From: a virus | Strand: one strand, 5' to 3' | Virus record (IMG/VR): IMGVR_UViG_3300018080_000100 | Length of the DNA stretch: 34,656 bases | In this document: in pieces, positions 1,678 through 34,328 of the stretch | Position numbering within the stretch: position 1 is the stretch's first letter | How the letters are laid out: each line of letters begins with the position of its first letter | Position numbers and translations under genes: made by a program | Notes under the pieces: generated by a model | The model's input: the letters and a program-made list of their open reading frames with translations, nothing else | What the model was told of the DNA's origin: nothing | Database searches by the model: none

Positions 1678-2091
1678 TCATTGAATACGTGCAGCGAAGC
1701 CGAGCCAGAAACGGAAGTCTCCGTCGACCTCCTGGATCGGGTCGCCGATGATGATGTGGGTGCGCAGCGCATTGGGCACTGCTTCAATGTAGCGCTGGAT
1801 TGCATCCATCGCACCGAGCATCGCCTTGACCGGATCTTGACTGGTCCGATAAGGCAACAACGGGATGCGAACAAGGTCGCCATCCCTGGTTAGGCTCCAC
1901 GCCAATGGGCCGTCTGGCCTCGAGAACTGTAGCGGCTCAGCGCGCGCTTTCCAAATCTCGTTCTCACCGCGGCGAAGCACCTGCTGGATTAGCGGGTTGC
2001 CCGTGTGCGGATCGGTGGGGAGCTCCTCCGCTTCAAGGAACGGAGTCATGTCGAATATTTGTGCAGTGTAGTCACGGGACATGTTTGCCAT
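1678..2091 (-). CDS. hypothetical protein (137 aa)
   Basis: Track ORF with protein-like composition. Its start overlaps the stop of the upstream gene (2072) by 20 nt. No recognisable motif. Confidence 0.55.
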   Translation of the reverse strand: MANMSRDYTAQIFDMTPFLEAEELPTDPHTGNPLIQQVLRRGENEIWKARAEPLQFSRPDGPLAWSLTRDGDLVRIPLLPYRTSQDPVKAMLGAMDAIQRYIEAVPNALRTHIIIGDPIQEVDGDFRFWLGFAARIQ

Positions 2092-2896
2092 CCAGTACGT
2101 CGAAGAGTGTTGGGTGGTTACGGATACGCGGTGCGGGCGCTTCGGGCGGTTCGCACCTGTAAGTTACACCGATCGGCTGTTGAGAAAAACCGCGCCGGGA
2201 CGCTGTTGAGCATTTTCCGCTCTCGTTGGCGTTGATGGCCAACCCCGTAGTGAACTTGCCCATCTTGTAGCCATGCTGATGGCACAGGGCGCCAAGCATC
2301 ACGTCGCCGCCGTTGTGTTCGAAGTCCTTCGGCGGCCAGTCATGCCGTTTCAGGATATCCGTCCGGATGCACCACCACCCGCCTGTGATGAACGAAATAC
2401 GGGCATGCTGCGGCACCGGCTTGCCATTGAACCACGGCTGATCCCTGATGTACTGCGCCTGATGCCCCCGAAGGTTCATCAGGTACGGCGCGCCCACCAT
2501 GGCATGATTCTGCATCTTGTCGTCAAGTATGCCGAACCACAGTTGCGGGTCTCGATTGCTGTCCAATAGCCACGAGTCATCGTCGAACCAGATGGTGTAC
2601 TTCGTATCGATGCCTGGGTGCCCGTCGTTCAACGTCGCATCTGGTGTACCGTGGAACATGCGCCGCATCAGCGGATACTTGTAGTACGGCTGCTCTCCAC
2701 GATACACGTCGGTGATCGGGACATATATGTGCCGGCGCAGCACAGTCTCAGTATCCCTGCAGACGTTGTTCAACCCGACACGCATGTCGAAGTAGTCGGC
2801 CCACCCCGCACGACCGAGCGACTCTAAGAGCCGCTCGGCCAAGTCGGGATGTTTGCCGTAGAACAGAGCACAAATTGTGAACTGCTTGTTTGCCAT
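2072..2896 (-). CDS. hypothetical protein with hhhhDDD motif (YTIWFDDDSWL); possible GT-A fold glycosyltransferase
   Basis: 274 aa track ORF. Its ATG overlaps the upstream stop as TAATG at 2894-2898. A DxD-like motif preceded by a hydrophobic beta-strand is typical of nucleotide-sugar glycosyltransferases. The assignment is tentative. Confidence 0.6.
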   Translation of the reverse strand: MANKQFTICALFYGKHPDLAERLLESLGRAGWADYFDMRVGLNNVCRDTETVLRRHIYVPITDVYRGEQPYYKYPLMRRMFHGTPDATLNDGHPGIDTKYTIWFDDDSWLLDSNRDPQLWFGILDDKMQNHAMVGAPYLMNLRGHQAQYIRDQPWFNGKPVPQHARISFITGGWWCIRTDILKRHDWPPKDFEHNGGDVMLGALCHQHGYKMGKFTTGLAINANESGKCSTASRRGFSQQPIGVTYRCEPPEAPAPRIRNHPTLFDVLDGKHVP

Positions 2897-7094: not shown

Positions 7095-7110
7095 GGTGTT
7101 TACAAGCCTC

Positions 7111-8520: not shown

Positions 8521-8608
8521 GTTAATGCCTCCATGTTACGAAAGGTTACAAGTTACAAGTTATCGGTTGAAAGTTATGCCTGAATTATGGCACACTGGAG
8601 GTCGCGAT
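8521..8608 (-). promoter_or_regulatory. AT-richer intergenic region with tandem GTTACAA GTTACAA GTTATCGG and GTTGAAAGTTATG repeats; putative promoter/operator for gene 7111..8520
   Basis: It is one of the few non-coding gaps in the minus-strand block. Read on the minus strand it contains TTTCAA and CATAAT hexamers and the direct heptamer repeat (minus-strand sense TTGTAAC TTGTAAC). It ends with a GGAGG SD. Confidence 0.35.
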
Positions 8609-14609: not shown

Positions 14610-14619
14610 TGATCGTTCC

Positions 14620-15321
14620 TTAGGGGGCAAACATTAGGATGCCTGTAGCCTCGTCTTTCAGTACCTTCGGTATCATGGCACCCCACGTCCGGCTGTAGCC
14701 TATCGGGTCCATCAAGAACTGCGTCAAAGCAGCAGCCCTATGCGCACGCTCTGCCTCGTGCAACTGCTCCGAATGTGCAATGCAGTATCGGTACAGCGCG
14801 GGCAGCTCGTACATTTTGTTCATGAGAACAAAATTCCAAAGCTGCTGGTCCGTGTAGTCAGGGAAGGCGTTAGCTGCCTCGCCCACACAGCATTCGAACT
14901 CCAGCTGGTATGACTGCAGTGCTTGCAGCATGCTGTTGTCGGCACGCTTGTTGTAATCCAGGTAGCGCTTCAACGCCTTCGGACCCTTGAACGTCGTCGG
15001 GTTTGGTGCTACCGAAAGCGTCTCGTCCGCCGGCACGCTGTATCTGTACTGGACGTGGATGAACCGCTCGAAATTGCTGATGTCTGCCCGTATCAGCGTC
15101 CGTGCGAGGTCCATCCAGACAGGCGTAACATGCCGCGGGCGCGACATTGCCACTGACTGGCCGTCGACTTGCATCTCGCGCACTTGGCGCTCGCGCATAT
15201 TGGCCAAAGCCAGCCGATGCGCAGCAATGTACGTCGGGTCTTGTACTGTCGGCAGCTCTTCGGCCTCCTCAGGTGGAGGAGCCTGCATCTGCGCAGCACG
15301 TGGTGGATTAGAATCCGGCAC
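14620..15321 (-). CDS. hypothetical protein (about 233 aa)
   Basis: Track ORF. A GTG start at 15321 has a GAGGA SD 6 nt upstream. It overlaps the SF2 helicase stop by 14 nt. Confidence 0.55.
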   Translation of the reverse strand: MPDSNPPRAAQMQAPPPEEAEELPTVQDPTYIAAHRLALANMRERQVREMQVDGQSVAMSRPRHVTPVWMDLARTLIRADISNFERFIHVQYRYSVPADETLSVAPNPTTFKGPKALKRYLDYNKRADNSMLQALQSYQLEFECCVGEAANAFPDYTDQQLWNFVLMNKMYELPALYRYCIAHSEQLHEAERAHRAAALTQFLMDPIGYSRTWGAMIPKVLKDEATGILMFAP

Positions 15322-17177: not shown

Positions 17178-18212
17178 TCAGATCATGTTTGTTGCGATCT
17201 GGTGCAGCTCGTACGCTGCCTTCTCCGTCTGGTGATGGAAGAAGTCCGTCGGACGGAATAGCGGGCACTGCTGCTCAGGTGTCGCAGCGGATTCACGATA
17301 CAGCTCGCTCAGCCACGTGTGGCGGAGGAACGCGATAAACCGCTGCGAGCCCCGCAAATCAGCCATGACTGGATCGCCCTCGGGCGCGTTCGGATCGCCT
17401 AGGCCAAGCTTGCGGCCCCATGTCCTCCAGCAGAAATCCCACGGGGCCATGCCCACCAGGTCGCTGCCCTCGACAGGATGCGGCGCGCCAAGCTCATAGC
17501 GATAGCGCACCTTCTGCTCGGCTGCTCTGTTCTTCCAGCAGTTCAGCACGACCTTGCAGCGTTTGTGGTGCCGCCACGGTTCGCGTGTGCCGTACACGCC
17601 GGCCTGCGTTCGTGGGTTCAAGCCCAGCCACGCTTCCAGCTTGCCGAGACGATCTGGTGCGCACTGGTCTATGTACCAGCGCGGGTCCAGTATGTACGAC
17701 AGCAGTCCTGCCACCGACAGTTTGTTGAGTGACTGGATGAACGATAGCGGACGCCACGCAGGATGGCCACGCAGCAGCTGCAAGACATCCACCTCAACTT
17801 CTTCGCCGTGGAGCACACTCTTCGACAGTGCGACTGCCAGGGCATAGGAGCGATAGTCGGACTCGACGACTTCGTGGAAACCACCCAAGCTGGGCGCTCG
17901 TGTGAAATCCCGCATAGCCAACAACATAGCTTCGGGGTTACGGCGATGCTTTTCAATACGCCCGACCAATGGCGTGCATACCTGCACGCTTTGCAGCTTG
18001 TCTTTCTGTTTGAGGTCGTACAACTGCGTGATCAATCTGGCGTTAGCGCACGTGCCTACTAACTGCACGCTATCCGCGCGCGTGAAGGCAGCGCTCTCGA
18101 GAAACGCTTCTGGAGACTCGCCAGAGCATCGCGTGGCGTAGTCTCCGTCGGCATACCAGATCTTTCCGCAGTGCGTATGCAGTTTCATTGTCAATGTGTC
18201 GATCGCTCTCAT
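17178..18212 (-). CDS. hypothetical protein (344 aa)
   Basis: The ATG at 18212 overlaps the sbcC-like stop as ATGA, indicating translational coupling. Composition is protein-like. No recognisable motif. Confidence 0.65.
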   Translation of the reverse strand: MRAIDTLTMKLHTHCGKIWYADGDYATRCSGESPEAFLESAAFTRADSVQLVGTCANARLITQLYDLKQKDKLQSVQVCTPLVGRIEKHRRNPEAMLLAMRDFTRAPSLGGFHEVVESDYRSYALAVALSKSVLHGEEVEVDVLQLLRGHPAWRPLSFIQSLNKLSVAGLLSYILDPRWYIDQCAPDRLGKLEAWLGLNPRTQAGVYGTREPWRHHKRCKVVLNCWKNRAAEQKVRYRYELGAPHPVEGSDLVGMAPWDFCWRTWGRKLGLGDPNAPEGDPVMADLRGSQRFIAFLRHTWLSELYRESAATPEQQCPLFRPTDFFHHQTEKAAYELHQIATNMI

Positions 18213-20344
18213 GCAGCTGGCAGTTCGATTGTGTTGTCAAAATGGTGCGATATCCGCGGTTCGTGTGTAACGAACAGCACCTGCAGCCCGCGCTCATGCG
18301 ACAGGTCACGCAGGCGCTCCAGCGCACGCGGCAAGCTGTCGAGGTTGTGCTCGTCCAGGCCTGCTGTGGGCTCGTCCATAATCAGTACACCAACCTGACC
18401 CGCGAAGGTCGAATTGACGGTGATCCGAAATGCCATCGCAAGTACGATGCGCTCGCCGATCGATAGTCGTCGGTCGGGCTGCACCCGCACGCCGTCAAGG
18501 AACCTGGCTGTGAAACCTAGGCTCTCGTCCATCTCCACGCGGAAAGGCGCTTCGAACATGGAGAGCGCTTCGTTCACCTGTTCTAGCATCATTTCCACGT
18601 AGGTGTAGGACACCATCCGCGGCGCTTCGTTGCGATGAAACACGCTACGCACGTCGGTCAGGTGCTGCACTACCTCACGGGTCTTCTGTCCTTGAGCCAA
18701 CGTCTTGCGAACGTTCTCAATCTGCTCTTGGACAGCAACGCGCTTTGCGTGTGCAAGCGCACGCTCGCGTGTAAACTGCTCCAGTTGCCGTTGCTTGGCC
18801 AGTATATCGGCGTTGGCTGCTTGCGCCTCGTCATGCTGCGCCTTGGTGTGCCACGGCTGTAACGCGTTGTGGGCGTCCTGGGCCTGCTGCAGCGCCTCAG
18901 CGAGCTGCTTACACTCGCCTTCCAGTGAGGACAGCTGCAGGGCCTTACTGGTCTTCTCAGCTTGAACCTGCTGCAAAGCTTCCTGGAAATGCGAACGCTC
19001 GTTCAGCGTCTTTTGAACTTCCTCTTCGGAGGTCTCGGGCGGGCTACACGCTTCGATCGCCAGACGTCGTCCTTCCAGCTGACGCTGGTCAGACGCCTTG
19101 TGCTTCATCTGCACGATGTATGCAGAGTCAGCCCTGTCATACACGTCCCACGTGTCCCTCCGCAGCCGTAGCGGCGGCATCTGCGCCTGTATCGCCGCCA
19201 GCTCGTCCTCCAACTCGGCCTTGCGCTGGGCGCGCTCGTTCGCGCCGGGCATCTTCTGGCCGCATGTAGGACAGGTATCCGCCTGGCCCATGTCCAGCAG
19301 ATTGATACGAATATTACCACACGTATCTTCGAGGTACTTCAGCTGCTGCGCCTCCTCGTCGCTCAGGCGTGGCTCTGGTGGCTGCACCGGCGCGACTGTG
19401 TTCTCCCACGTAGCTTTGAACGTAGCTTCGTCACGCTCAAGTGCAGCCCGCGTGGCTGCAGCAGCATGGTGGGCTTTCCACTGATCGCGTGCCTCCTCGG
19501 CGTCTGCACAGTCCGGCGCAATCGCGGCTAGCCCAGCTTCAAGGTCGGCTATTGCGGCGTCCAAGTCACGTAGCGGTTCAGCCGCCGCTTTGGCTGCAGC
19601 CTCTTTGGCAGTGTACCGCCCCTGCAGCTCTTCGACGCGCGCCATCGCCTGGCGTTCGTCGTTGTACTGCTGGATCAACGTCTGGTTGGCATGCAGCTCA
19701 GTCTCCGGATGCTCTGGCAGCTCCAGCGCAGCAATGTTGGCGTCCGCACCGGCGATAGCCTCGTCGTGCGTAGCCGCTTGATCATTCAGCTCGTCCTCCG
19801 TCAGCAGCGACGTCGGAATCTCGATGGCGCTGACGAACTTACCCAGCTGCTCGTACACGCGCTCGGCGTGCGCCACGCCGAACAGTGCCGCCAAGGAAGC
19901 GGCCCGCTCTGCCGGCGGTTGGTCAAACATCTCGTCGATCTTGCGCTGGCGCACAAAGATGTAGTCGGCGATCTGCTTCTTGGTGGCGCCCAGTCTGCCC
20001 CACAGTTCGGAATTGATCTCGCCTACCGACGTCCACCGCGCATCGTCGATGGTCAGCAGATTGGTAGTACCCTGCAAAGCACGACGGACATGCATCCGCG
20101 CGCCGTAGTGTATCAACCAAGCTTCGACGAAGGCTTCTGCGTTACCTGGCGTACCCTGACGGATATCGTCGGCCTTCTTGCGCTCACCGCCGGCGTCGCC
20201 GATCAGTGCAAGCTGTATGGCGCGCAAGATGTTGGTCTTACCAGCGCCGTTCGGGCCAACGAGCATGTTGAGCCCAGGAGTCAGCTCGAGAGTTAGATCC
20301 TCGTGCTGGCAGAAATTCGCTAGGTGGAGTCGTTCTATGATCAT
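18209..20344 (-). CDS. SbcC / Rad50-like SMC-family ATPase (phage gp46-like recombination nuclease subunit)
   Basis: The N-terminal Walker A is LVGPNGAGKTNIL. A long coiled-coil carries a central CPTC zinc hook. The C-terminal signature and Walker B are GERIVLAMAF...LIMDEPTAGLD. Confidence 0.85.
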   Translation of the reverse strand: MIIERLHLANFCQHEDLTLELTPGLNMLVGPNGAGKTNILRAIQLALIGDAGGERKKADDIRQGTPGNAEAFVEAWLIHYGARMHVRRALQGTTNLLTIDDARWTSVGEINSELWGRLGATKKQIADYIFVRQRKIDEMFDQPPAERAASLAALFGVAHAERVYEQLGKFVSAIEIPTSLLTEDELNDQAATHDEAIAGADANIAALELPEHPETELHANQTLIQQYNDERQAMARVEELQGRYTAKEAAAKAAAEPLRDLDAAIADLEAGLAAIAPDCADAEEARDQWKAHHAAAATRAALERDEATFKATWENTVAPVQPPEPRLSDEEAQQLKYLEDTCGNIRINLLDMGQADTCPTCGQKMPGANERAQRKAELEDELAAIQAQMPPLRLRRDTWDVYDRADSAYIVQMKHKASDQRQLEGRRLAIEACSPPETSEEEVQKTLNERSHFQEALQQVQAEKTSKALQLSSLEGECKQLAEALQQAQDAHNALQPWHTKAQHDEAQAANADILAKQRQLEQFTRERALAHAKRVAVQEQIENVRKTLAQGQKTREVVQHLTDVRSVFHRNEAPRMVSYTYVEMMLEQVNEALSMFEAPFRVEMDESLGFTARFLDGVRVQPDRRLSIGERIVLAMAFRITVNSTFAGQVGVLIMDEPTAGLDEHNLDSLPRALERLRDLSHERGLQVLFVTHEPRISHHFDNTIELPAA

Positions 20345-21100
20345 TTACTTTCCATTGCGCTGGCGTGCGCGGGTTGTGTCTACTTTCCTGCTGGCACGCG
20401 TTTCGTCATGGTCAAGTTCGAATATGTCGAGGGCGCCGCGGATCTCGGACCAGATCTTCTGCAGCTGCCCGTGGGAGCCACAGCCGGCGATTTGGTCCTC
20501 GAACAGCGCTACATCGTCTTCCAGCTTCTTGAGCTTCTTGCCGACGGGGTCTTCGCGGATGAGCGCCGTCAGTTGGCGCTTGCAGTGATCCCGCATTATG
20601 TTTGTCGCAGTGCCGGGATAGCGGTCGAAGGTGCCCTCGTCCTCGTCCTCGTCCTCGTTGCTGTGGTAGCGCCGATAGTTGTTGCGGCGATTGACATGGC
20701 TTTGCTGCATGTCGGCCGATGGCAGGTCGGCGCGCTTACGCCCCTGCATCTTCTCGACTACGCCACCTTCCAATTCGCGGATCGCTGTATCGAGCTTGTC
20801 GCGCTCTTCACGCAGGTCTTCCAGATCGACCATCATGTTTTCGACGCCAAAGTGCTCCTCGATGAGCCTCTGGGCCTCTACTACCAAGTCGCGTTTCCAA
20901 GTCGGCTTTTCGGCCTGAATCTGGTCGCGCAATTCCTGGGCACGGCTATCCAGCCGGTCCCGAAAGTGTTGCTTCTCGCTTACTGTCAGTCCCATAAAGT
21001 CGGTCTTTGTATATTCGAAGTAATTCTGTTTGGATGTCACGTGTTCCTGCCAAGCTGACGGCGTCTTCGCAGACGGCTGTAGGCTCAGCGTAGAACTCAC
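20345..21100 (-). CDS. hypothetical acidic protein (EDEDEDE stretch, coiled-coil character) between the sbcD-like and sbcC-like genes
   Basis: Track ORF. The start is uncertain (ATG at 21100 or 20995). The 5' end overlaps the 3' end of the sbcD-like gene. Confidence 0.5.
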   Translation of the reverse strand: MSSTLSLQPSAKTPSAWQEHVTSKQNYFEYTKTDFMGLTVSEKQHFRDRLDSRAQELRDQIQAEKPTWKRDLVVEAQRLIEEHFGVENMMVDLEDLREERDKLDTAIRELEGGVVEKMQGRKRADLPSADMQQSHVNRRNNYRRYHSNEDEDEDEGTFDRYPGTATNIMRDHCKRQLTALIREDPVGKKLKKLEDDVALFEDQIAGCGSHGQLQKIWSEIRGALDIFELDHDETRASRKVDTTRARQRNGK

Positions 21101-22085
21101 GGATGCAGCCGGCTAGGCCGTCGTTCAGCACTACCTGAACGCGCCGCGCCGTATCGACTGCAACCTGCGCACTCTCCACAGGTACCGCCTTGAGGAACAG
21201 GTGCGCATCGCCTGTGACACGCGCCTCTATCCGCTCTCTGGCCTCCGGAACATCTTCCCTGTACCAGACACGGATTATGTTCGCAGACACGGACGCCGGA
21301 ACGCCCACCTTCGGTATCCTCGCAGGATGCTGCCGCCAGCTGTCAATGAAAGCGTCCAGGTCTTCCTGGTCATTGATTCTGGCTTCGTAGTAGCCGCGTG
21401 TATGCAGCTGCACAGCCTCGGCCGTCAGATCGTCGTTCAGTATGAAAACGTTCTTTGTATGCGGCTCGCCGATATTCTGCATGCAGATCGATCCAGGCGA
21501 GATGATGCGCTGTTGTCCGCGCGTCTCGTCGATCGTCACATGGAAATCGCCGGTGAGGATGCAACGTGGAGACTTGGCCCAATGGAACCATGCGTCTCCG
21601 CGATCTTCGCCCATGAAGTCCATCCACACCTGGTGTGTGGCTAGGATATCGACGCCTTCCGGAACTGCCTCCAGCGCGGCGCGTACTTCATTGGGTGACT
21701 TGTAGTCCAGTCCGTAGATCCGGAGTCCAGTGCCTGGTATTTCCACCAGCTGCTCGTTGATATGCAGCGGATGTAGATGTAAGGCATGCAACAACGGCGG
21801 TGTTGACCGCTCGTGCTGGCCCTGCACGTACAGTACCTTGCGACCCTGCTGCTGGAACGTATCCAACGCCGAGCGCATCGTCTGCAGCGCATCCGATTGC
21901 TGTAGCTTCTGCTCGAATAGGTCGCCGAGCAGGATCACGTACGGAACATCATACGTATCCGCTATCTCGCAGATCTGTTTGATGCTCCACGCCGTATCCC
22001 CGCATAGGGTGTCCCGGCGGCTCCAAACACGGTCGTGTTTGCGCACATGCCAGTCTCCAGTTGCGAGCGCAATCGGCTTAGCCAT
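20946..22085 (-). CDS. SbcD / Mre11-like metallophosphoesterase nuclease (phage gp47-like)
   Basis: Phosphoesterase motifs are present in order: GDWH, LLGDLFE, GQHE, TGDFH. A CAGGAGATCAAAATT SD/spacer precedes the ATG at 22085. Confidence 0.85.
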   Translation of the reverse strand: MAKPIALATGDWHVRKHDRVWSRRDTLCGDTAWSIKQICEIADTYDVPYVILLGDLFEQKLQQSDALQTMRSALDTFQQQGRKVLYVQGQHERSTPPLLHALHLHPLHINEQLVEIPGTGLRIYGLDYKSPNEVRAALEAVPEGVDILATHQVWMDFMGEDRGDAWFHWAKSPRCILTGDFHVTIDETRGQQRIISPGSICMQNIGEPHTKNVFILNDDLTAEAVQLHTRGYYEARINDQEDLDAFIDSWRQHPARIPKVGVPASVSANIIRVWYREDVPEARERIEARVTGDAHLFLKAVPVESAQVAVDTARRVQVVLNDGLAGCIREFYAEPTAVCEDAVSLAGTRDIQTELLRIYKDRLYGTDSKREATLSGPAG

Positions 22086-22527: not shown

Positions 22528-22707
22528 ATGATGCTGGTTCTTTCTCGCAAGACCGGTCAAAGAATACTGATCGGTGACGACATCACTGTTACGCTAGTAC
22601 GCGTCGACGGTGACACGGTGCGTATCGGTATCGAGGCGCCTGAGACTGTGCGGATTCTCCGCGAAGAGCTCAAAAAGAAGCAACCTCGACAACCTGTAGC
22701 GCATTAG
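22528..22707 (+). CDS. csrA: carbon storage regulator CsrA/RsmA family RNA-binding protein (59 aa)
   Basis: The sequence MMLVLSRKTGQRILIGDDITVTLVRVDGDTVRIGIEAPETVRILREELKK aligns residue-for-residue with E. coli CsrA ([47 protein letters not shown]). An AAGGAAGGAG SD lies 5 nt upstream. The longer track ORF start (22372) is rejected. It is the only clear plus-strand gene in 32 kb. Confidence 0.9.
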   Translation: MMLVLSRKTGQRILIGDDITVTLVRVDGDTVRIGIEAPETVRILREELKKKQPRQPVAH

Positions 22708-22996
22708 CGATATCCGCAAAGAGTCGCTTCTTAGCGCATACTGCCAGCTTATGGGCCTGGGACACGCTCACGCAACGCACTGATTCGCGCTGCCCTGCTG
22801 CCTGTCCACGGCCCGAGGCTGGCCAGTAGTCCGCCAGGTGTTTATCGCCGTACTTGAAACGCCAATGCTGGTCGTTGTCGCTCAGCGTGACAGTGATCTG
22901 CTCGAAGGCAAGCTCGCTCTGGAGCATTTCCAGTTCAGCTGTTGCTGACTGGAGCCGCTGTTTGCGGATCTGCTTCTTCTTGCTCATCTGCTGCAC
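22670..22996 (-). CDS. hypothetical protein (108 aa), doubtful
   Basis: Track ORF convergent with csrA, overlapping its 3' end by 38 nt and the HldE-like stop by ~60 nt. No SD was checked. Its composition is Gln/Lys-rich. Confidence 0.3.
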   Translation of the reverse strand: MQQMSKKKQIRKQRLQSATAELEMLQSELAFEQITVTLSDNDQHWRFKYGDKHLADYWPASGRGQAAGQRESVRCVSVSQAHKLAVCAKKRLFADIANALQVVEVASF

Positions 22997-24428
22997 AGGC
23001 TTTCGCGCGGATGTCGGTCGCGTGCGTATCGAACTCGAGCGTCGTCGTCATGATACGGCCGCCGACCTCCTCCATCGTCAGCGCTTCTGGAATCCGATCG
23101 GTCTTGCCGGCGTGCTCGGGGCCCTTGAACAGGACCGTCGGTACCAGATTGTGGATAAGTGACTTGGGTGTGTCTTCGTCGAACTTGATGATCGCATCGA
23201 CGCACGGTAGCGCTGCCAAACTCGCGGCACGCGTGGCGTAGTCGTTGATCGGCTTGCTCTTGATGCGGGCGGCCGACTCGTCCGAATTCAACATGACGAG
23301 TAGGAAATCGCACTCTTTGCGCGCCTGCTCCAGCATGGAGACATGCCCAGGATGCATCAGATCGAAAACACCGTTGGCTACGCCGAAGTCGCCGCCGCTG
23401 ACCATCATGGATGCGCGCAGCAGCATAGCAAAAGGCAGCTCTATCTTCTTGAGCTGATTGCCAGATACAATGGTCAGCCGCCTGTGTATCTGGTGCAGTG
23501 ACACCGCGGATGCGCCAGGGCGCTCTACCTGTATCGCTGCGGCCGTTGCTGCAAAGTGCAACATGGGCATCAAAGACATATCGGCAGCGACGCCATAGGT
23601 GAACGCTGCAGCAACAGTGTCGCCAGCACCGCACGAGTCGACCGCTAGTGCTGGCACAGCTGGCATCTCGGACGGCGTCTCGTTCGGGCGCACTATGAGC
23701 ATACCGGCAGCGCCACGCGTCACGATGCAATGCACAGCGTGCAGTTCCTTGCAGACCGCCATAGCCGCCGAGCGTACGTCAGCAATCCGCGGGTCGGCGA
23801 CTGCCGCAAGCACCTCATGCTCATTGGGCGTAATGATATGCGCACCACGATAGTGAAGCATATGCTTCGGCGTCGGGTCTACGACCACCGGTACTTTGTG
23901 TGCGCGCGCATACTCGAAGATGACCTGGAGCGTACGCTCCGTGCAAATACCTTTGTCGTAGTCGGACACAAGGATCGCAAGTGGTTTCGCGTCGTCGACA
24001 CACTTCATGAACATGTCGACCACCTTGTCCTCGACATTGGCCTTCGGGCGTGCGTCTATGTCGAAGCGAGCTACCAGACTGTCAGCTGCGTACACGCGGT
24101 GTTTGCAGGGCGTTTGGTAGTTCTTATCCGTGGCTACATACCGCGTCAGCAGCTCCGGTAGTTCCATGTTCAAGAAGTTCCGGCCGGCGGTGTCATCGCC
24201 TACGACGCTTACGAACGCCGTGGGCATCGCCATATGTACGAGATTGGCCATCGCGTTGGCGGCACCGCCCAAGCCAAGGAAGGGCGTACCAGGTGGCACG
24301 TCTATGACGGGAACTGCAGCGGTTTGGTCAAGCTGCTTCACCGTTCCCATGTAGTAGTGGTCCATAAGCACAGGTCCGACTACGACCACGCGGTCGCCTT
24401 CATCCTGTGCTGGGTGATTCGTCGTCAA
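22935..24428 (-). CDS. bifunctional PfkB-family sugar kinase / cytidylyltransferase-like nucleotidyltransferase (HldE/RfaE-like, D-beta-D-heptose 7-phosphate kinase / heptose 1-phosphate adenylyltransferase architecture)
   Basis: The N-terminal ribokinase-like domain has a GAGD anion-hole motif (DSCGAGDTVAAAF). The C-terminal domain carries the (T/H)xGH nucleotidyltransferase motif (GVFDLMHPGHVSMLEQARK). The start is TTG at 24428 with a GGAGAG SD 6 nt upstream. Confidence 0.8.
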   Translation of the reverse strand: MTTNHPAQDEGDRVVVVGPVLMDHYYMGTVKQLDQTAAVPVIDVPPGTPFLGLGGAANAMANLVHMAMPTAFVSVVGDDTAGRNFLNMELPELLTRYVATDKNYQTPCKHRVYAADSLVARFDIDARPKANVEDKVVDMFMKCVDDAKPLAILVSDYDKGICTERTLQVIFEYARAHKVPVVVDPTPKHMLHYRGAHIITPNEHEVLAAVADPRIADVRSAAMAVCKELHAVHCIVTRGAAGMLIVRPNETPSEMPAVPALAVDSCGAGDTVAAAFTYGVAADMSLMPMLHFAATAAAIQVERPGASAVSLHQIHRRLTIVSGNQLKKIELPFAMLLRASMMVSGGDFGVANGVFDLMHPGHVSMLEQARKECDFLLVMLNSDESAARIKSKPINDYATRAASLAALPCVDAIIKFDEDTPKSLIHNLVPTVLFKGPEHAGKTDRIPEALTMEEVGGRIMTTTLEFDTHATDIRAKACAADEQEEADPQTAAPVSNS

Positions 24429-24627
24429 TACTGCTCTCCGCTGTGACTGAGTCTGGATCTAGTGATACACGTCGCAGCCCACTGACTGCCACGGGCTTTG
24501 ATGTGCATGTAGGGCAAATACGGTTACCAGCATGTTGCGACGCAAACGTCGTGCCACAGCGCAAACAGCGCCGCGGCTTAGCTGCTAATCTGTCATCCGC
24601 CCTGGGTTTTGCCATTTGTGGCTCCAA
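24400..24627 (-). CDS. small zinc-ribbon protein (CLRCG...CPTC), 75 aa
   Basis: A CxxC-18-CxxC arrangement is present. The start abuts the stop of the upstream gene at 24628. It overlaps the HldE-like start by 29 nt. Confidence 0.5.
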   Translation of the reverse strand: MEPQMAKPRADDRLAAKPRRCLRCGTTFASQHAGNRICPTCTSKPVAVSGLRRVSLDPDSVTAESSIDDESPSTG

Positions 24628-27436: not shown

Positions 27437-27733
27437 TCACCAGTGATACTGGCGAAGGAAATCGCAGATCGGGCCGTCGGCGTCGATCCGCACGAAATCT
27501 ATCTCGTGGCTGTGCGCCACAGACAGTATGTGTCCCACCGAGGGACTGAAGCCAAAGTCGTTAAGGGTCTCTAGGATGCCGTCGCCGAAATCGTCCGGTA
27601 CACCAACCCAGAAACCCTCAGGGTATTCCTCTACACCTAGATCTGCACACTGGCCTAGCGCATTCGCGTCTTCGGCAGTGATATGACAGGTGTTGATCGT
27701 CCAGAGTCGACGAATATCTAGCGGTTCGGTCAT
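27437..27733 (-). CDS. hypothetical acidic protein (98 aa)
   Basis: The ATG at 27733 overlaps the stop of the pilin-like gene as ATGA. Confidence 0.5.
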   Translation of the reverse strand: MTEPLDIRRLWTINTCHITAEDANALGQCADLGVEEYPEGFWVGVPDDFGDGILETLNDFGFSPSVGHILSVAHSHEIDFVRIDADGPICDFLRQYHW

Positions 27734-28155
27734 TGCATTAGCTCCCGTACCGCATCTTCGTCGCGCGAATCGACGTCGATCTCAGTCACTGTGCCGTTCG
27801 CAATGTCGTTCGACATCACGGACAAGAGGCGCCCCCTGGGAGCTACATTGCCTTCATACTGTATAATTCCCTGAATTTGCGCTGCCTTGAGGCGTACTTT
27901 GCGCACCTGCGCTACAAGCGAAAGACAATCAGCGTCAGCCGCCTTCACATAGAAATGGTGCCGACTATCGATGACACCTTCCCACTGAGCCTTGGCTGCG
28001 ACATACTGTAAGCGCGTTACCGGACCGAACACTTCCTCGGTACGCGTAGTGTGTCCGACAGAGAACTTGCCGATCGCGCCGACGAGCAGCGAAGCCAATA
28101 TCCCCACGATCGCGATGACTACTAGTAGCTCTACAACGGTAAACGCTCGACGCAT
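27730..28155 (-). CDS. prepilin-type N-terminal cleavage/methylation domain protein (type IV pilin / pseudopilin-like), 141 aa
   Basis: The N-terminus MRRAFTVVELLVVIAIVGILASLLVGA matches the class III signal peptide / N-methylation motif ([G/A]F-T-hh-E-hhhhhhh...). An AAGGAGG SD lies 7 nt upstream. Confidence 0.75.
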   Translation of the reverse strand: MRRAFTVVELLVVIAIVGILASLLVGAIGKFSVGHTTRTEEVFGPVTRLQYVAAKAQWEGVIDSRHHFYVKAADADCLSLVAQVRKVRLKAAQIQGIIQYEGNVAPRGRLLSVMSNDIANGTVTEIDVDSRDEDAVRELMQ

Positions 28156-28983: not shown

Positions 28984-29362
28984 CGTGTATCCATCCTTCC
29001 TGTACGGACCAGATGATCCGTTCAATGTTCAAATCGTCGGCCAGCAGGACCGGCGACGGACTGTGTTCTTTGGGACGAAGGCCGCGCGCACGACAACGTG
29101 CGATCGCCTTCGGTTCTAGGTTCTGAAACTTGTATAGGTAGTCCATCGCGTCTGCGTGGTGTCGAAACACGTGCCAGCCGGATAGATACCATGTCTTAGA
29201 TGTGCCGTCGCGTACGCGCTTCTTCGCGGCGACCATCCACTTGTTCACAGGCATGACCTTTGAACCGGCCAGGCCATGGAACAACGTCTTGATATTGCCA
29301 TCGACGATGTCGACTATCTTGTAGACGACCTCGCCTGGTGCGGCGCTAACCCGATTGGTCAT
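28964..29362 (-). CDS. hypothetical protein (132 aa)
   Basis: Track ORF. It overlaps the ndk stop by 17 nt and the next gene start by 20 nt. Confidence 0.5.
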   Translation of the reverse strand: MTNRVSAAPGEVVYKIVDIVDGNIKTLFHGLAGSKVMPVNKWMVAAKKRVRDGTSKTWYLSGWHVFRHHADAMDYLYKFQNLEPKAIARCRARGLRPKEHSPSPVLLADDLNIERIIWSVQEGWIHDELQTE

Positions 29363-29774
29363 AGAACCCGGGGAAGAAGATACGTATCTCGCGCTCCGCC
29401 TCTGGCGCGCTGTCGCTGCCGTGGATGACGTTCCGGCGATAGTTCTCGCCGTAGTCTCCGCGGATGGTGCCGGGTAGCTTCTGCGGCTTGGGCGCTAGCG
29501 GCGCACCTATCAGCTCGCGCACGACCGCAATGGCATTCTCATGCCGGTGGTCAACGACCATCACCCAGCACAGTCCGCTGACCATGAAGTCGATCAGTCC
29601 GTCGATCCACGTCTCATGGGCGAACTTCTGGTAGAGATCATTGGCCTGCCGTCGCGTCATGAGGATCAGCTCGCCCTTAATGAAGAAGCAGCCGCGGTCG
29701 CGTAGCTTCGTCATAAGGATCCCGTCGATATTCCTCTCGACCGCGTCCGGCTTGATGATTACGAGGGTTTCCAT
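29346..29774 (-). CDS. ndk: nucleoside diphosphate kinase
   Basis: It has IIKPDAV at the N-terminus, GTIRGDY, and the active-site NVIHGSDS motif. Its length of 142 aa is typical. A CAGGAGAACAAAAT SD/spacer precedes the start. Confidence 0.9.
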   Translation of the reverse strand: METLVIIKPDAVERNIDGILMTKLRDRGCFFIKGELILMTRRQANDLYQKFAHETWIDGLIDFMVSGLCWVMVVDHRHENAIAVVRELIGAPLAPKPQKLPGTIRGDYGENYRRNVIHGSDSAPEAEREIRIFFPGFYDQSG

Positions 29775-32514: not shown

Positions 32515-32629
32515 GGGTTCCTCCTAAATTTTAGAAATGCACCTTTGCGATCCCACGCAAATATGGTAGACTTTTAATATCGTGCAAGTGTGGCACGACG
32601 TCAGTTTCCAGTTCAGCATAGGAATCGTA
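32515..32629. promoter_or_regulatory. divergent promoter region (strand switch), locally AT-rich: TAAATTTTAGAAATG...TATGGTAGACTTTTAATATCG
   Basis: It is the only place where coding switches from minus to plus. It holds several TATAAT-like hexamers (TATGGT, TTTAAT, TAATAT) and a visible drop in GC. Confidence 0.4.
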
Positions 32630-33766
32630 ATGGCCAAGAAGACTTCTGCTGCGGCCCTGAGAGAGCTCAAGACGCTTGAGCGCTACTCTAAACTCAGTCT
32701 GGACGACAAGATCCGTCAAATCCGTGACGCGGAGACGAAGCTGGATCGCGAGCGCAGTAAGCACCGCGAAACCAAGCGTAAACTCCGGCAGGCGGAGACC
32801 GATCTTACCATCAACGAAGAGAAGCTCGGTACTGTCCTGTGTATGCAGGACCACCTGGCTGATCGCAAAATCCCCGCCGCGAAGAAGCGCCGCGGGAAAG
32901 GCCAAGCCTCGGCAATCATCTGTTGCAATGATTGGCATGCCGAGCAGCAGGTTGCGCCCTCGCTGGTCAACGGACTCAACGAGTTCACCAAAGCGATTGC
33001 CAAGCGGCGCATCAAGCGCACATGGGAGCAAGCAGTATACTTGATCGAATTCGCTCGAAAGATCAGCAAGATCGACGAGGTCATCCTGTGGGCAGGTGGT
33101 GACCTCATGAACGGCATGATCCACGAGGAATATCAGCAGACCAACTGGGCTGGGCCGACAGACGCGGCCATTTTCGTACAGCAACAGCTGGTCGACGGTA
33201 TTAAGTACCTTCTCAAGAACACGAAGTGCAAGAATCTGCGCTTCCTGGCGAACCACGGCAACCACGGCCGTGCCACCGAGAAGAAGCGCATCCACACGCA
33301 GTGGTCGCACTCGTGGGAGTACCTCATCTACAACAACGTGGCCCAGGCGTTCGTTGGCGACAAGCGAGTCTCGTCGTTTATTGCCGACGGGCCGCTGCTC
33401 AACACGGACATCCAAGGGCACCTGTGTCGGTTCTCGCACGGTGACACCTTGAAGTTCCACGGCGGGCAGGCTGGGCTCATGGGGCCTGCCAACAGGGCGT
33501 TGCATCAATGGAACGCGCATGGCCGCGCGGAATTGACCGTGATCGGCCATTTCCACCAGTTTCTCACAAAGCCCGGCTTCGTTGCCTGCGGTAGCCTGAT
33601 CGGCTACGATCCGTATGCAGCAGCTATCCGAGCGGAGGCCGAAGCGCCTACCCAGACACTGATCGTCATGGACGCCGAGCACGGCAACATCATGACTACC
33701 CGGATCTTTTGTGAGGACAAGCCTAATGCGAATTCGCACTGGAGCACCCCCCAGTTCTGCGGCTAA
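32630..33766 (+). CDS. calcineurin-like metallophosphoesterase with N-terminal coiled-coil (378 aa)
   Basis: The start is refined to the ATG at 32630 (MAKKTSAA). The motifs follow the canonical order: CCNDWH (DxH), AGGDLMNG (GDxxD), LANHGNHG (GNH), and VIGHFH (GHxH). Confidence 0.75.
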   Translation: MAKKTSAAALRELKTLERYSKLSLDDKIRQIRDAETKLDRERSKHRETKRKLRQAETDLTINEEKLGTVLCMQDHLADRKIPAAKKRRGKGQASAIICCNDWHAEQQVAPSLVNGLNEFTKAIAKRRIKRTWEQAVYLIEFARKISKIDEVILWAGGDLMNGMIHEEYQQTNWAGPTDAAIFVQQQLVDGIKYLLKNTKCKNLRFLANHGNHGRATEKKRIHTQWSHSWEYLIYNNVAQAFVGDKRVSSFIADGPLLNTDIQGHLCRFSHGDTLKFHGGQAGLMGPANRALHQWNAHGRAELTVIGHFHQFLTKPGFVACGSLIGYDPYAAAIRAEAEAPTQTLIVMDAEHGNIMTTRIFCEDKPNANSHWSTPQFCG

Positions 33767-34328
33767 ACACATCTACCTGGACATGGACGGCGTGATGTGC
33801 AACGTGCACAAAGCGGTGCTGGCCATGCATGGGCGGATGGACCTGCTCGATAGGATCACCAGTCATGACATGGAAGAAGCCATGGGCATGTCCTTCCAGC
33901 AGATCTGGGGTCCTGTCGTTAAGGCAGGCTACGAGTTTTGGTACGACCTCGAGCCGTATCCGTGGACGTTCGAACTGTGGGCGTGGGCCCACGAAGTAGG
34001 CAGCGAGATCGGCATACTGAGCCGCCCGCTGATGTTCGAGTTCTTGGATGCGCATGAGGTCGGCTACTGCCTCCAAGGCAAAATGGCATGGCTGCGCAAA
34101 TACTTCGGCCGTGACTTCTACGACTTCATATTCACGACCGGCAAGGGCGCAGTATCACAGCCCGGCGTCATCCTCGTGGACGACGACGCGCGCTACGAAG
34201 ACGATTTCAACGCCCGCGGCGGGCGCCAGATCGTCTTCCCACAGCCCTACAATCGATTTGCCGCCCAGTGCGTAGACCCTATGGACTGCGTACGGGCGCA
34301 ATTTCAACGAATCGAGGACCAAACATGA
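33726..34328 (+). CDS. HAD-superfamily 5'(3')-deoxyribonucleotidase-like phosphatase
   Basis: The N-terminal HIYLDMDGVMCNV matches the HAD motif I (hhhDxDG[TV]) of NT5C-type nucleotidases. ILVDDD lies near the C-terminus. An ATG at 33726 has a GAGGA SD 8 nt upstream. It overlaps the preceding gene by 41 nt. Confidence 0.7.
   Translation: MRIRTGAPPSSAAKHIYLDMDGVMCNVHKAVLAMHGRMDLLDRITSHDMEEAMGMSFQQIWGPVVKAGYEFWYDLEPYPWTFELWAWAHEVGSEIGILSRPLMFEFLDAHEVGYCLQGKMAWLRKYFGRDFYDFIFTTGKGAVSQPGVILVDDDARYEDDFNARGGRQIVFPQPYNRFAAQCVDPMDCVRAQFQRIEDQT

What the first reader, a model, noticed from the sequence alone, without database searches (positions are those of the whole stretch)
22935..24428. HldE-like bifunctional sugar kinase / nucleotidyltransferase encoded inside a phage replication region
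The domain order matches HldE/RfaE, the ADP-heptose biosynthesis enzyme: a PfkB carbohydrate kinase with a GAGD motif fused to a cytidylyltransferase-like HxGH domain. This is unexpected next to phage replication genes. A DxD-motif putative glycosyltransferase (2072-2896) lies in the same block. One possibility is synthesis of a nucleotide-activated sugar for glycosylating phage DNA, as anti-restriction hypermodification. Another is modification of a virion protein, or remodelling of host LPS or surface for superinfection exclusion. ADP-heptose is also an innate-immune and signalling metabolite. A heptose or other NDP-sugar pathway of this type in a lytic-phage replication module is not a standard described module.
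Basis: partly seen in the sequence, partly recalled or inferred. Interest (0 to 1): 0.75.

Follow-up and report, generated by a model that had tools for sequence, protein, structure and literature searches.

The report
Divergent phage ADP-heptose synthase (HldE-like)
An uncultured large bacteriophage carries, inside its DNA-replication operon, a diverged copy of the bacterial enzyme that makes the activated sugar ADP-heptose, probably to feed a phage-encoded glycosylation system whose target (perhaps the phage DNA) is unknown.

Summary
ORF 22935-24428 (minus strand, 497 aa) is a PfkB sugar kinase fused to an HxGH nucleotidyltransferase. HldE, HldA and HldC are the best matches for both domains, and the catalytic motifs are intact. 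It scores at half the NCBIfam HldE cut-off.

It belongs to a metagenome-only, derived subfamily. Several HldE-invariant motifs are replaced by new residues that are themselves conserved (SPEAPVP to DQTAPVP, STT to TH(T/A)T, a 2-residue loop deletion).

The gene is a syntenic member of the replication operon of an uncultured lineage of 100-230 kb phages. It lies just upstream of SbcD in 25 of 47 related loci. More distant members keep orthodox HldE motifs. In relatives lacking it, the slot holds a GT2-like plus an RGP/GT75-like gene, and one relative has all three in a row.

No GmhA, GmhB, HldD or GT9 gene was found in the regions examined.

Best reading: donor-sugar supply for phage-directed glycosylation. 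DNA is favoured as the target but unproven. Heptosyl-5hmC made by other phage enzymes is a published precedent, so this is a new variant of a known kind. Interest 0.55.

The parts
22935..24428 (-). HldE-like bifunctional gene (497 aa): sugar-phosphate C1-kinase fused to a sugar-1-phosphate nucleotidyltransferase. Derived phage subfamily.
23478..24395 (-). N-terminal PfkB / HldE domain-I-like kinase domain (residues ~12-317). GG (54-55), N58, K109, R111, R121, D123, SDY (155-157), D184-P185, N202, E205 and GAGD (267-270) are retained. The lid motif is changed to LDQTAAVP.
   Evidence: TIGR02198 rfaE_dom_I E=9.9e-65, 219 bits, cut-off 345. HldA 4e84 E=5.7e-28. Residue tables.
23001..23396 (-). 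C-terminal cytidylyltransferase-like / HldE domain-II-like nucleotidyltransferase domain (residues ~345-476). N352-G353, FD..HPGH (355-362), NSD (381-383), K390, R400, EDTP (418-421) and KG (435-436) are retained. There is a 2-residue deletion after K390, and xSTT is changed to THAT.
   Evidence: TIGR02199 rfaE_dom_II E=4.3e-35, 121 bits, cut-off 181.5. HldC 5x9q E=5.6e-20. BpHldC substrate motifs from PMC7993394. Motif table.
24400..24627 (-). Small Zn-ribbon protein (75 aa) immediately upstream. It overlaps the HldE-like start by 29 nt and is syntenic in most close relatives.
   Evidence: (weak zinc-ribbon Pfam hits)
22670..22996 (-). Conserved 108-aa protein of unknown function immediately downstream. 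It overlaps the HldE-like 3' end by 62 nt and is 48-62% identical across the sub-clade, so it is at least as conserved as the enzyme.
20946..22085 (-). SbcD/Mre11-like metallophosphoesterase. It is the anchor of the conserved synteny: the HldE-like slot lies just upstream of it throughout the lineage.
2072..2896 (-). GT-A-fold glycosyltransferase (274 aa) with an invariant FDDD motif. It is a core gene of the wider phage lineage. It is a candidate user of an activated sugar; its acceptor is unknown.
33711..34328 (+). NT5C-type HAD phosphatase. It is most simply a 5'(3')-deoxyribonucleotidase. It is the only phage-encoded HAD phosphatase seen that could substitute for the missing GmhB step. It is not HldE-specific, since it also occurs in HldE-lacking relatives.
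   Evidence: PF06941 E=1.6e-9. Distribution.

Best explanation
The gene encodes a catalytically competent, phage-adapted descendant of bacterial HldE.

Inferred mechanism:
- The PfkB domain phosphorylates the anomeric C1 of a phosphosugar. [quoted passage not shown]
- A phosphatase removes the distal phosphate. This would be host GmhB or a phage HAD enzyme, because none is dedicated in the phage.
- The HxGH domain transfers AMP, or possibly another NMP, onto the sugar-1-phosphate. The product is a nucleotide-activated sugar, canonically ADP-heptose.

The gene is transcribed with the replication genes. It supplies donor sugar for phage-encoded glycosyltransferases:
- the lineage-wide GT-A at 2072-2896;
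- in relatives, a sub-clade-specific GT4-type GT-B, or adjacent GT2-like and GT75/RGP-like enzymes.

The favoured acceptor is phage DNA, as anti-restriction hypermodification.

What is shown: the domain architecture, intact catalytic motifs, deep conservation and fixed synteny in the replication operon, and the alternative glyco-genes in the same slot.

What is inferred: the identity of the sugar and nucleotide, dependence on host GmhA and GmhB, which GT uses the product, and the acceptor.
For: Enzyme type:
- Both domains match the heptose-specific enzymes best (HldE NF008454 E=2.7e-78; HldA 4e84; HldC 5x9q).
- Ribokinase is far behind (87 vs 219 bits).
- Catalytic and ATP-binding motifs are invariant across a clade that is only 36-60% identical.
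- All five docking-predicted heptose-1-P-binding positions of BpHldC have counterparts (PMC7993394; alignment).

Selection and ancestry:
- The gene sits between the Zn-ribbon/223-aa/276-aa genes and the 108-aa/SbcD genes in every close relative.
- A full-length two-domain homologue lies upstream of SbcD in 25 of 47 loci, including relatives whose SbcD is only 25-35% identical.
- The distant copies keep canonical HldE motifs (RISPEAPVPV, FTNGCFD, LKGxxRP, xSTT), so the ancestor was an orthodox HldE.
- No phage copy nests inside the cellular cluster.
- The phage type is absent from 185,579 GTDB species genomes.

Operon:
- The start has a good SD sequence.
- The coding sequences overlap on both sides.
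- There is no convincing terminator between ~26.6 kb and 20 kb.

Link to glycosylation:
- In HldE-lacking relatives the same slot holds a GT2-like gene (PF13704, weak) and an RGP/GT75-like gene (PF03214, E=3.4e-15), with a sulfotransferase-like gene next to them.
- In L152 the order is HldE-like, GT2, RGP, then SbcD.
- A confident GT-A is encoded in the same gene string.
- A GT4-type GT-B is present on all five derived-type HldE+ contigs long enough to show both loci.

Precedent:
- Phage BGCs make heptosyl-5hmC DNA using their own kinase, phosphatase and cytidylyltransferase-family enzymes (10.1101/2023.12.21.572611).
- RB69 and DLP3 make UDP-arabinose with the same isomerase, C1-kinase, HAD phosphatase, nucleotidyltransferase logic (PMC13326640).
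Against: - The protein scores at about half the curated HldE cut-offs.
- 56 of 119 columns conserved in cellular HldE are not retained in this sub-clade, and many are replaced by new residues conserved within it. The sugar and/or nucleotide specificity may have shifted.
- No GmhA, GmhB, HldD or GT9 heptosyltransferase was found in the window, in L207, in ~71 kb of a 153-kb relative, or in any lineage locus.
- No ThyA-type hydroxymethylase or hydroxylase, 5mYOX/TET or C5-methyltransferase was recognised. Only an ordinary-looking ThyX lies ~1.8 kb beyond the window's left edge. There is therefore no known route to a glycosylatable base.
- The GT-A is not HldE-specific. Known ADP-heptose transferases are GT-B enzymes, not GT-A.
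- The GT-B could not be shown in the window's own genome. Its co-occurrence with HldE could simply reflect shared ancestry of the sub-clade.
- Fold matches of both GTs are generic.
- Less than a third of the 226-kb genome was seen.
Confidence: 0.45

Rival explanations
1. Auxiliary metabolic gene acting on the host envelope. The enzyme boosts or redirects the host's own ADP-heptose pool. This could sustain or remodel LPS core or other heptose-containing surface glycans during infection. It could also sequester heptose and reduce receptor display (superinfection exclusion). Host heptosyltransferases would use the product.
For: - HldE is an LPS-core enzyme, and the nearest cellular relatives are ordinary bacterial HldE at 31-36% identity.
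- The phage encodes no GmhA or GmhB, so it must plug into an existing host heptose pathway.
- HldE and domain-II-like genes are listed as AMGs in viromes and cyanophages.
- The sequestration idea is discussed in 10.1101/2023.12.21.572611.
Against: - The gene is embedded, with overlapping reading frames, in the replication operon rather than in a host-interaction or lysogeny module.
- It has been inherited with that module over deep divergence and has evolved away from cellular HldE.
- In relatives, soluble phage glycosyltransferases occupy the slot instead.
- No membrane-associated Gtr-type or GT9 genes were found.
- A host that already has HldE would gain little from a divergent second copy.
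Confidence: 0.17
2. Glycosylation of phage (virion) or host proteins. The activated heptose is used by phage GTs to heptosylate capsid, tail or other proteins. This would be analogous to bacterial autotransporter heptosyltransferases that use ADP-heptose, or to glycosylated mycobacteriophage virions (both recalled from my own knowledge, not tested here).
For: - In relatives the sub-clade-specific GT-B lies directly after a very highly conserved ~660-aa protein (61-76% identity) and other large conserved proteins. These could be virion components.
- GT-A and GT4 folds are compatible with protein or small-molecule acceptors.
- No base-hydroxylating enzyme was found that would prepare DNA for glycosylation.
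Against: - The ~660-aa protein has no detectable similarity to portal or capsid families, so a structural context is unproven.
- The HldE-like gene and the GT-A are in the replication/recombination gene string, not next to the terminase or recognisable structural genes.
Confidence: 0.18
3. Neofunctionalised enzyme with a different substrate pair. The derived subfamily no longer makes ADP-heptose. It activates another sugar or ribosyl compound, or uses another NTP. Examples would be a different NDP-sugar, or a nucleotide/NAD-related salvage reaction that exploits the PfkB kinase plus HxGH adenylyltransferase chemistry.
For: - Coordinated changes occur at positions invariant in cellular HldE and in the orthodox phage copies, and the new residues are themselves conserved: D18 to P, SPE to DQT, DPK to DP(V/T), a 2-residue deletion in the KG loop, KGG to KGP, STT to TH(T/A)T.
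- All three HldE models score below their cut-offs.
- PF01467 also covers NMN, FMN and pantetheine-phosphate adenylyltransferases and CTP-dependent enzymes (one search lists such weaker hits).
Against: - HldE-specific models still beat every alternative by a wide margin in both domains.
- Most putative phosphosugar-binding residues (K109, R111, R121, D123, D23, SDY) and all five predicted heptose-1-P contacts are retained.
- The syntenic orthodox copies in sister phages argue for continuity of function.
Confidence: 0.15

Closest known systems
[quoted passage not shown]
   Same: - Same two-domain order and length.
- Best match for both domains.
- Catalytic GAGD Asp, GG motif, HxGH motif and most conserved Arg/Lys/Asp residues are retained.
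- Predicted heptose-1-P contacts are retained.
   Different: - 31-36% identity.
- Scores about half the curated cut-offs.
- The hallmark RxSPEAPVP lid motif, DPK, the KG loop, KGG and STT motifs are altered across the sub-clade.
- Encoded in a phage replication operon without GmhA, GmhB, HldD or GT9 neighbours.
- Absent from cellular genomes.
Phage 'contig 53' heptosyl-5hmC DNA hypermodification cluster (HAD/APH-like bifunctional enzyme + cytidylyltransferase + GT-B DNA glycosyltransferase; bioRxiv 10.1101/2023.12.21.572611)
   Same: - Phage-encoded kinase plus cytidylyltransferase-superfamily nucleotidyltransferase that activate a heptose for a phage GT.
- The GT-B found in this sub-clade's relatives has the same PDB neighbours (BshA, MshA, Pgl enzymes) as that paper's GT-B DNA GTs.
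   Different: - The kinase there is APH-like and fused to a HAD phosphatase. Here it is PfkB-type and fused to the nucleotidyltransferase, with no dedicated phosphatase.
- That cluster sits next to a C5-methyltransferase and a 5mYOX that create 5hmC. No such enzymes were found here.
- DNA as acceptor is unproven here.
AfhE-type UDP-arabinose pathway of phages RB69, DLP3 and HY126 (PMC13326640)
   Same: - Same pathway logic: sugar-phosphate isomerase, then C1 kinase, then HAD phosphatase, then nucleotidyltransferase.
- The kinase and nucleotidyltransferase are fused in one protein.
- The product feeds DNA glycosyltransferases.
   Different: - Different folds (NTP_transferase N-domain plus APH-like kinase C-domain) and the opposite domain order.
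- The sugar is a pentose.
- It is accompanied by a ThyA-homologue 5hodCMP synthase, an isomerase and a HAD phosphatase, none of which were found here.
Cyanophage and other phage 'HldE domain II-like' nucleotidyltransferases (PHROG 7878)
   Same: The C-terminal domain matches phrog_7878 (E=2.8e-21). Many T4-like cyanophages carry such a ~130-150 aa protein, annotated as bifunctional HldE.
   Different: - Those are single-domain proteins lacking the kinase.
- Only two full-length matches (~30% identity) exist among 50,697 GenBank phage records. One of those two is a bacterial chromosome record.

Membership tests
HldE (bifunctional heptose kinase/adenylyltransferase) | PfkB kinase domain followed by a cytidylyltransferase-like domain in one ~475-500 aa polypeptide | tested here: met
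   Pfam PF00294 (residues 51-308) plus PF01467 (residues 350-475). The NF008454 alignment spans residues 12-473.
HldE (bifunctional heptose kinase/adenylyltransferase) | Score at or above the curated NCBIfam equivalog cut-offs (NF008454, TIGR02198, TIGR02199) | tested here: not met
   264 vs 521 bits; 219 vs 345; 121 vs 181.5
HldE (bifunctional heptose kinase/adenylyltransferase) | Kinase catalytic machinery: GG dipeptide, NxxE, DxxGAGD with the catalytic Asp | tested here: met
   G54-G55, N202/E205, D264 and G267-A-G-D270 are invariant or nearly so in the clade.
HldE (bifunctional heptose kinase/adenylyltransferase) | HldE/HldA hallmark N-terminal motifs GDxMLD and RxSPEAPVP (lid strand) | tested here: not met
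   The window has GPVLMD and QLDQTAAVP, and the sub-clade consensus is GPVIxD / RLDQTAPVP. Distant syntenic phage copies (L141, L144, L149, L151) do keep RISPEAPVPV.
HldE (bifunctional heptose kinase/adenylyltransferase) | Nucleotidyltransferase motifs: NGxFDxxHxGH, NSD, KG, ExTP, KGG, xSTT | tested here: inconclusive
   Present: NG-FD-HPGH, NSD, K390, EDTP, KG. Altered: 2-residue deletion after K390, KGG to KGP, STT to HAT. All five docking-predicted heptose-1-P contact residues of BpHldC have counterparts.
HldE (bifunctional heptose kinase/adenylyltransferase) | Operates with GmhA isomerase, GmhB phosphatase, HldD epimerase and ADP-heptose-dependent heptosyltransferases | tested here: not met
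   phmmer with the E. coli GmhA, GmhB, HldD, WaaC, WaaF and WaaU proteins found none in the window or in any lineage locus. Only part of each genome was available, and the host could supply them.
HldE (bifunctional heptose kinase/adenylyltransferase) | Enzymatic conversion of heptose-7-P to heptose-1,7-bisP, and of heptose-1-P plus ATP to ADP-heptose | not testable with these tools
   Requires biochemistry or delta-hldE complementation.
Phage DNA sugar-hypermodification gene cluster | Enzyme that creates a glycosylatable base (ThyA-homologue hydroxymethylase/hydroxylase, or C5-MT plus 5mYOX/TET) | tested here: not met
   No ThyA homologue in any fetched locus. No such Pfam hit among ~40 window ORFs. 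Only a ThyX ~1.8 kb beyond the window. The search was limited in sensitivity and in genome coverage.
Phage DNA sugar-hypermodification gene cluster | A glycosyltransferase that acts on DNA | tested here: inconclusive
   A GT-A (window) and a GT4-type GT-B (relatives) are confidently glycosyltransferases. Their fold neighbours are generic, so the acceptor cannot be inferred.
Phage DNA sugar-hypermodification gene cluster | Phage-encoded sugar-nucleotide biosynthesis enzymes co-located with DNA metabolism genes | tested here: met
   The HldE-like gene is in the replication operon. Relatives have alternative GT2/RGP cassettes in the same slot.
AfhE-type bifunctional arabinose-5-P kinase / UDP-arabinose pyrophosphorylase | NTP_transferase-fold N-domain plus APH-like kinase C-domain | tested here: not met
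   The domains here are PfkB and the HxGH cytidylyltransferase-like fold, in the opposite order (vs PMC13326640).

The most novel reading that the evidence does not exclude
The derived HldE subfamily has shifted specificity and makes a nucleotide-activated sugar other than ADP-heptose, or heptose on a different nucleotide. Together with the lineage's GT-A (and, in relatives, the GT4-type GT-B, GT75-like enzymes and sulfotransferases), this sugar builds a previously undescribed hypermodification of phage DNA. The modification would not start from the known ThyA-homologue or 5mYOX routes: possibly a heptosylated or sulfated glycan on a base, installed by enzymes of the replication module of an entire uncultured family of large phages.
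Probability: 0.12. Interest if true: 0.85.

Novelty: new variant of a known kind. Interest (0 to 1): 0.55.

Why it matters
If the enzyme feeds a phage glycosyltransferase, this lineage would add an HldE-type route to the growing list of ways phages make their own activated sugars for hypermodification. Its contigs are 100-230 kb, come from many metagenomes, and have no cultured relative.

It would also show that the slot next to SbcD is a swappable glyco-cassette (HldE, or GT2 plus GT75, or sulfotransferase). That would be a compact natural experiment in glycan diversification under pressure from host defences.

Practically, the derived subfamily offers a set of sequence changes at HldE-invariant positions that could reveal the determinants of sugar and nucleotide specificity in an antibiotic-target enzyme family. 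The gene set is small enough to test by heterologous reconstitution in E. coli.

If it only tops up host ADP-heptose, it is an ordinary auxiliary metabolic gene in an unusual location.

Tried and rejected
- DNA similarity to GenBank phages: none. PolA and helicase protein searches show only ~21-26% identity to isolated phages, so no named phage group could be assigned.
- The single-protein IMG/VR scan found nothing. It needed the clade alignment.
- Two contig look-ups failed because my longest-ORF starts did not match the called genes.
- Host inference failed: no tRNAs and no phage-type HldE in GTDB genomes.
- GT-A as a dedicated partner: rejected, because the family is lineage-wide and present in HldE-lacking genomes.
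- NT5C HAD phosphatase as a dedicated GmhB substitute: not supported, because it also occurs in HldE-lacking relatives.
- NAD or nucleoside-salvage reading of the PfkB plus HxGH fusion: considered, and given low weight because HldE-specific models dominate and the substrate-contact residues are kept.
- GT-B as partner in the window's own phage: could not be shown.
- The ~660-aa, ~520-aa and other proteins beside the GT-B gave no PDB, Pfam or PHROG assignment.
- Search for JGT-like similarity of the GT-A in AFDB: the library was unavailable. PDB and BFVD hits were generic.
- The NJ tree is star-like with long branches. It does not resolve whether all phage copies are monophyletic.
- The promoter/terminator scan was not above chance.
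- The minus-strand ORF 32531-33772 (413 aa) was rejected as probably spurious. I judged this from its translation, and because the plus-strand ORF 32582-33766 gets a weak metallophosphoesterase hit (E=0.004) and lines up in position, strand and size with a called 383-aa gene in relatives.
Full report
**1. Observation**

The ORF at 22935-24428 is real and lies on the minus strand. It is 497 aa with a TTG start. A GGAGA Shine-Dalgarno sequence sits 6 nt upstream. Public gene calls give the identical 497-aa product (P0001).

Pfam finds PfkB (residues 51-308, E=4e-35) followed by CTP_transf_like (350-475, E=5e-15).

Among NCBIfam models the best is HldE (NF008454, E=2.7e-78, aligned over residues 12-473). 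The two HldE domain models follow, and ribokinase is far behind at 87 bits. All three HldE models score well below their curated cut-offs: 264/521, 219/345 and 121/181.5 bits. Against the PDB the best sequence matches are the heptose kinase HldA (4e84, E=5.7e-28) and the heptose-1-P adenylyltransferase HldC (5x9q, E=5.6e-20).

**2. Context in the window**

The surrounding minus-strand gene string is a replication/recombination module:
- UDG-PolA fusion (8609-11830)
- primase (11827-12981)
- DnaB-like helicase (12981-14630)
- ResIII helicase (15308-16849)
- SbcC (18209-20344)
- SbcD-like protein (20946-22085)
- RecA-like protein (5633-7045)
- NDK (29346-29774)
- an NT5C-type HAD nucleotidase on the plus strand (33711-34328)

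The HldE-like coding sequence overlaps the upstream Zn-ribbon ORF by 29 nt and the downstream 108-aa ORF by 62 nt. No convincing terminator lies between about 26.6 kb and 20 kb, so the gene is inside the operon.

There is no nucleotide match to any GenBank phage. PolA is only about 25% identical to PolA of isolated phages.

**3. Relatives**

A search of 5.8 billion proteins finds a metagenome-only clade (P0001-P0016, 37-100% identity) on contigs up to 226 kb. Ordinary bacterial HldE follows at 31-36% identity.

In IMG/VR the clade sits on 57-195 kb viral contigs. One relative (153 kb) carries a terminase large subunit and an NAD-dependent ligase.

Gene order is fixed across the clade: 276-aa, 223-aa, Zn-ribbon, HldE-like, 108-aa, (CsrA on the opposite strand), 129-aa, SbcD, SbcC, 344-aa, helicase.

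I then used the SbcD-like neighbour as a probe. Of 47 syntenic loci, 25 carry a full-length two-domain HldE-like gene just upstream of SbcD. This includes loci whose SbcD is only 25-35% identical to the window's. The phage type is absent from 185,579 GTDB species genomes. In a distance tree no phage copy nests within the cellular cluster.

The gene is therefore an old, vertically inherited but dispensable component of this lineage's replication module.

**4. A derived subfamily**

Of 119 alignment columns that are at least 93% conserved in cellular HldE, 63 are retained in the window's clade. The retained columns include essentially all catalytic and ATP-binding residues. These other positions are replaced by new residues that are themselves conserved within the clade:
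- D18 to P
- RxSPEAPVP to R/Q-L-DQTA(P/A)VP
- DPK to DP(V/T/A)
- D182 to H
- a 2-residue deletion in the LKGxxRP loop
- KGG to KGP
- GxSTT to D-x-H-(T/A)-T

The more distant syntenic phage copies (L141, L144, L149, L151, L152, L172) keep the orthodox motifs. So the ancestor in this phage lineage was a canonical HldE, and the window's sub-clade has moved to a new constrained state in both domains.

The five heptose-1-P contact positions predicted for B. pseudomallei HldC (TNG, NSD, KG, ExTP, KGG; PMC7993394) all have counterparts in the window protein. The putative phosphosugar-binding K/R/D residues of domain I are also kept.

My reading is that both chemistries are preserved, and that specificity is either unchanged or shifted modestly. 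This cannot be settled in silico.

**5. Partners**

Local searches with E. coli GmhA, GmhB, HldD, WaaC, WaaF and WaaU found no homologue in any of these: the window, the near-identical strain L207, about 71 kb of the 153-kb relative, or any lineage locus. Several unrelated viral contigs do carry such genes beside their own HldE-like genes.

Its family occurs on 159 IMG/VR contigs, including HldE-lacking genomes. It is therefore lineage-wide rather than a dedicated partner.

A second enzyme lies about 15 kb beyond the GT-A in relatives. It is a GT4-type GT-B (pLDDT 92; top hits BshA, MshA, PimA, WaaG, PglA; no GT9 enzyme among the top 50). Its close family (32-66% identity) is small, and it is found on all five derived-type HldE+ contigs long enough to show both loci. 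I could not find it on the window's own contig.

**6. The slot is a glyco-cassette**

In six HldE-lacking loci the position just upstream of SbcD holds three genes:
- a GT2-like gene (PF13704, weak)
- an RGP/GT75-like gene (PF03214, E=3.4e-15)
- a sulfotransferase-like gene (weak)

In L152 (a 229-kb contig) the order is HldE-like, GT2, RGP, then SbcD. In L142-L144 the HldE-like gene is next to the sulfotransferase-like gene. In L172 it is followed by ThyX.

This is the strongest comparative evidence that the HldE-like gene serves a phage-directed glycosylation, rather than general host metabolism.

**7. Literature**

No paper on the function of a phage-encoded full-length HldE was found. Two studies give close precedents.
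- RB69 and DLP3 make UDP-arabinose by the same logic (isomerase, C1-kinase, HAD phosphatase, nucleotidyltransferase), with a bifunctional enzyme of different folds. They use it to arabinosylate 5-hydroxycytosine in DNA (PMC13326640).
- A phage cluster encoding a HAD/APH-like enzyme, a cytidylyltransferase and a GT-B produces mono- and di-heptosyl-5hmC on DNA in E. coli (bioRxiv 10.1101/2023.12.21.572611).

Heptosylated phage DNA and phage-encoded heptose activation are therefore known in principle. An HldE-type fused enzyme in this role has not been characterised.

**8. What argues against the DNA reading**

No ThyA-type hydroxymethylase or hydroxylase, 5mYOX/TET or C5-methyltransferase was recognised. 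The only thymidylate-synthase-type gene is an ordinary-looking ThyX. It lies 1.8 kb beyond the window's left edge in strain L207, which is 99.9% identical to the window. A sulfotransferase and a peptide deformylase sit beside it.

Both GT folds are generic. In relatives the GT-B sits beside large, highly conserved proteins of unknown function that might be virion components. Less than a third of the genome was visible.

**9. Verdict**

Layered confidence:
- A functional sugar-phosphate C1-kinase / sugar-1-P nucleotidyltransferase of HldE ancestry: about 0.8.
- The product is ADP-heptose itself: about 0.5.
- The product feeds phage-encoded glycosyltransferases: about 0.6.
- The acceptor is phage DNA: about 0.3-0.35.

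The rival readings are protein glycosylation, host-envelope AMG and shifted substrate, each at about 0.15-0.18.

It is a new variant of a known kind and moderately interesting (0.55). It has a clear and inexpensive experimental route to resolution.

Noticed in passing
window 22531-22707 (+): A CsrA (carbon storage regulator) homologue (PF02599, E=1.3e-22; 58 aa) is encoded antisense to the long minus-strand gene run, between the 108-aa and 129-aa ORFs. A CsrA gene sits next to SbcD in many relatives, including distant ones, so a phage-encoded post-transcriptional regulator is a conserved feature of this lineage.
   Followed up: partly
window 8609-11830 (-); L207:135-4288: The family-A DNA polymerase carries an N-terminal UDG-superfamily domain (PF03167, E=7e-21). 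In strain L207 (99.9% identical) the polymerase gene is split by an inserted HNH endonuclease gene (L207:3208-3915) that is absent from the window. This is a strain-level homing-endonuclease polymorphism.
   Followed up: partly
L207:13037-15569 (about 0.1-2.7 kb beyond the window's left edge): The same phage encodes a sulfotransferase (PF00685), a peptide deformylase (PF01327) and a ThyX (PF02511) just downstream of the GT-A gene. ThyX lies within 1-6 kb of the GT-A in many relatives and is immediately adjacent in L071.
   Followed up: partly
L150, L156-L159, L168 (~6.2-9.7 kb); L152:7026-8951: Relatives carry a cassette directly upstream of SbcD: a sulfotransferase-like gene, a GT2-like gene and an RGP/GT75-like gene (the UDP-arabinopyranose mutase / reversibly glycosylated polypeptide family). 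Among 50,697 GenBank phage records the RGP-like protein matched only one uncultured 595-kb phage record.
   Followed up: partly
L193:15322-16344; L141:6185-7273; L148:4607-5902; L153:4014-5291: A protein with weak deoxyhypusine-synthase / ArgZ-type Rossmann similarity recurs. It lies close upstream of the orthodox HldE-like gene in L141, L148 and L153, and about 5 kb from the GT-B in the 153-kb relative (5e-63 between L193 and L141). Its function is unknown.
   Followed up: partly
L193:7942-9954 and homologues in L188, L192, L199: A ~660-aa protein directly upstream of the GT-B is unusually conserved (61-76% identity). It has a CxxC...CxxC zinc-finger insertion and a Gly/Pro-rich C-terminal region. 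It has no PDB, Pfam or PHROG match, so whether it is a virion protein is unknown.
   Followed up: partly
window 27730-28155 (-): A 141-aa protein has a prepilin-type N-terminal methylation motif (PF07963, E=6.6e-5). This is a type IV pilin-like protein encoded by the phage.
   Followed up: no
window 29346-29774 (-), 33711-34328 (+), 32582-33766 (+): Nucleotide-pool genes: NDK (E=3.5e-34), an NT5C-type deoxyribonucleotidase (E=1.6e-9) and a metallophosphoesterase-like protein (weak). Relatives also have a faint dNMP-kinase hit next to the NT5C gene. The 413-aa minus-strand ORF 32531-33772 is probably a spurious antisense ORF of the 394-aa plus-strand gene.
   Followed up: partly
window 7096-8583 (+) and 7111-8520 (-): Two long ORFs (495 and 469 aa) overlap almost completely on opposite strands. 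The minus-strand one, with a Pro/Gln/Ala-rich C-terminus, matches the gene called in strain L207 and is probably the real gene. Its function is unknown.
   Followed up: no
window 2896-3870 (-): A DUF1016_N (YhcG-like) protein is encoded immediately upstream of the GT-A gene, sharing one base (2896) with its start. The two are adjacent in strain L207 as well.
   Followed up: no
L019-L044 (IMG/VR loci unrelated to this lineage): Other viral contigs carry HldE-like genes together with GmhA, GmhB, HldD-like epimerases and GT9-like heptosyltransferases. One giant-virus MAG (L016) has a full-length HldE-like gene. More complete heptose pathways therefore exist in other viruses, or in contaminating cellular fragments.
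   Followed up: no
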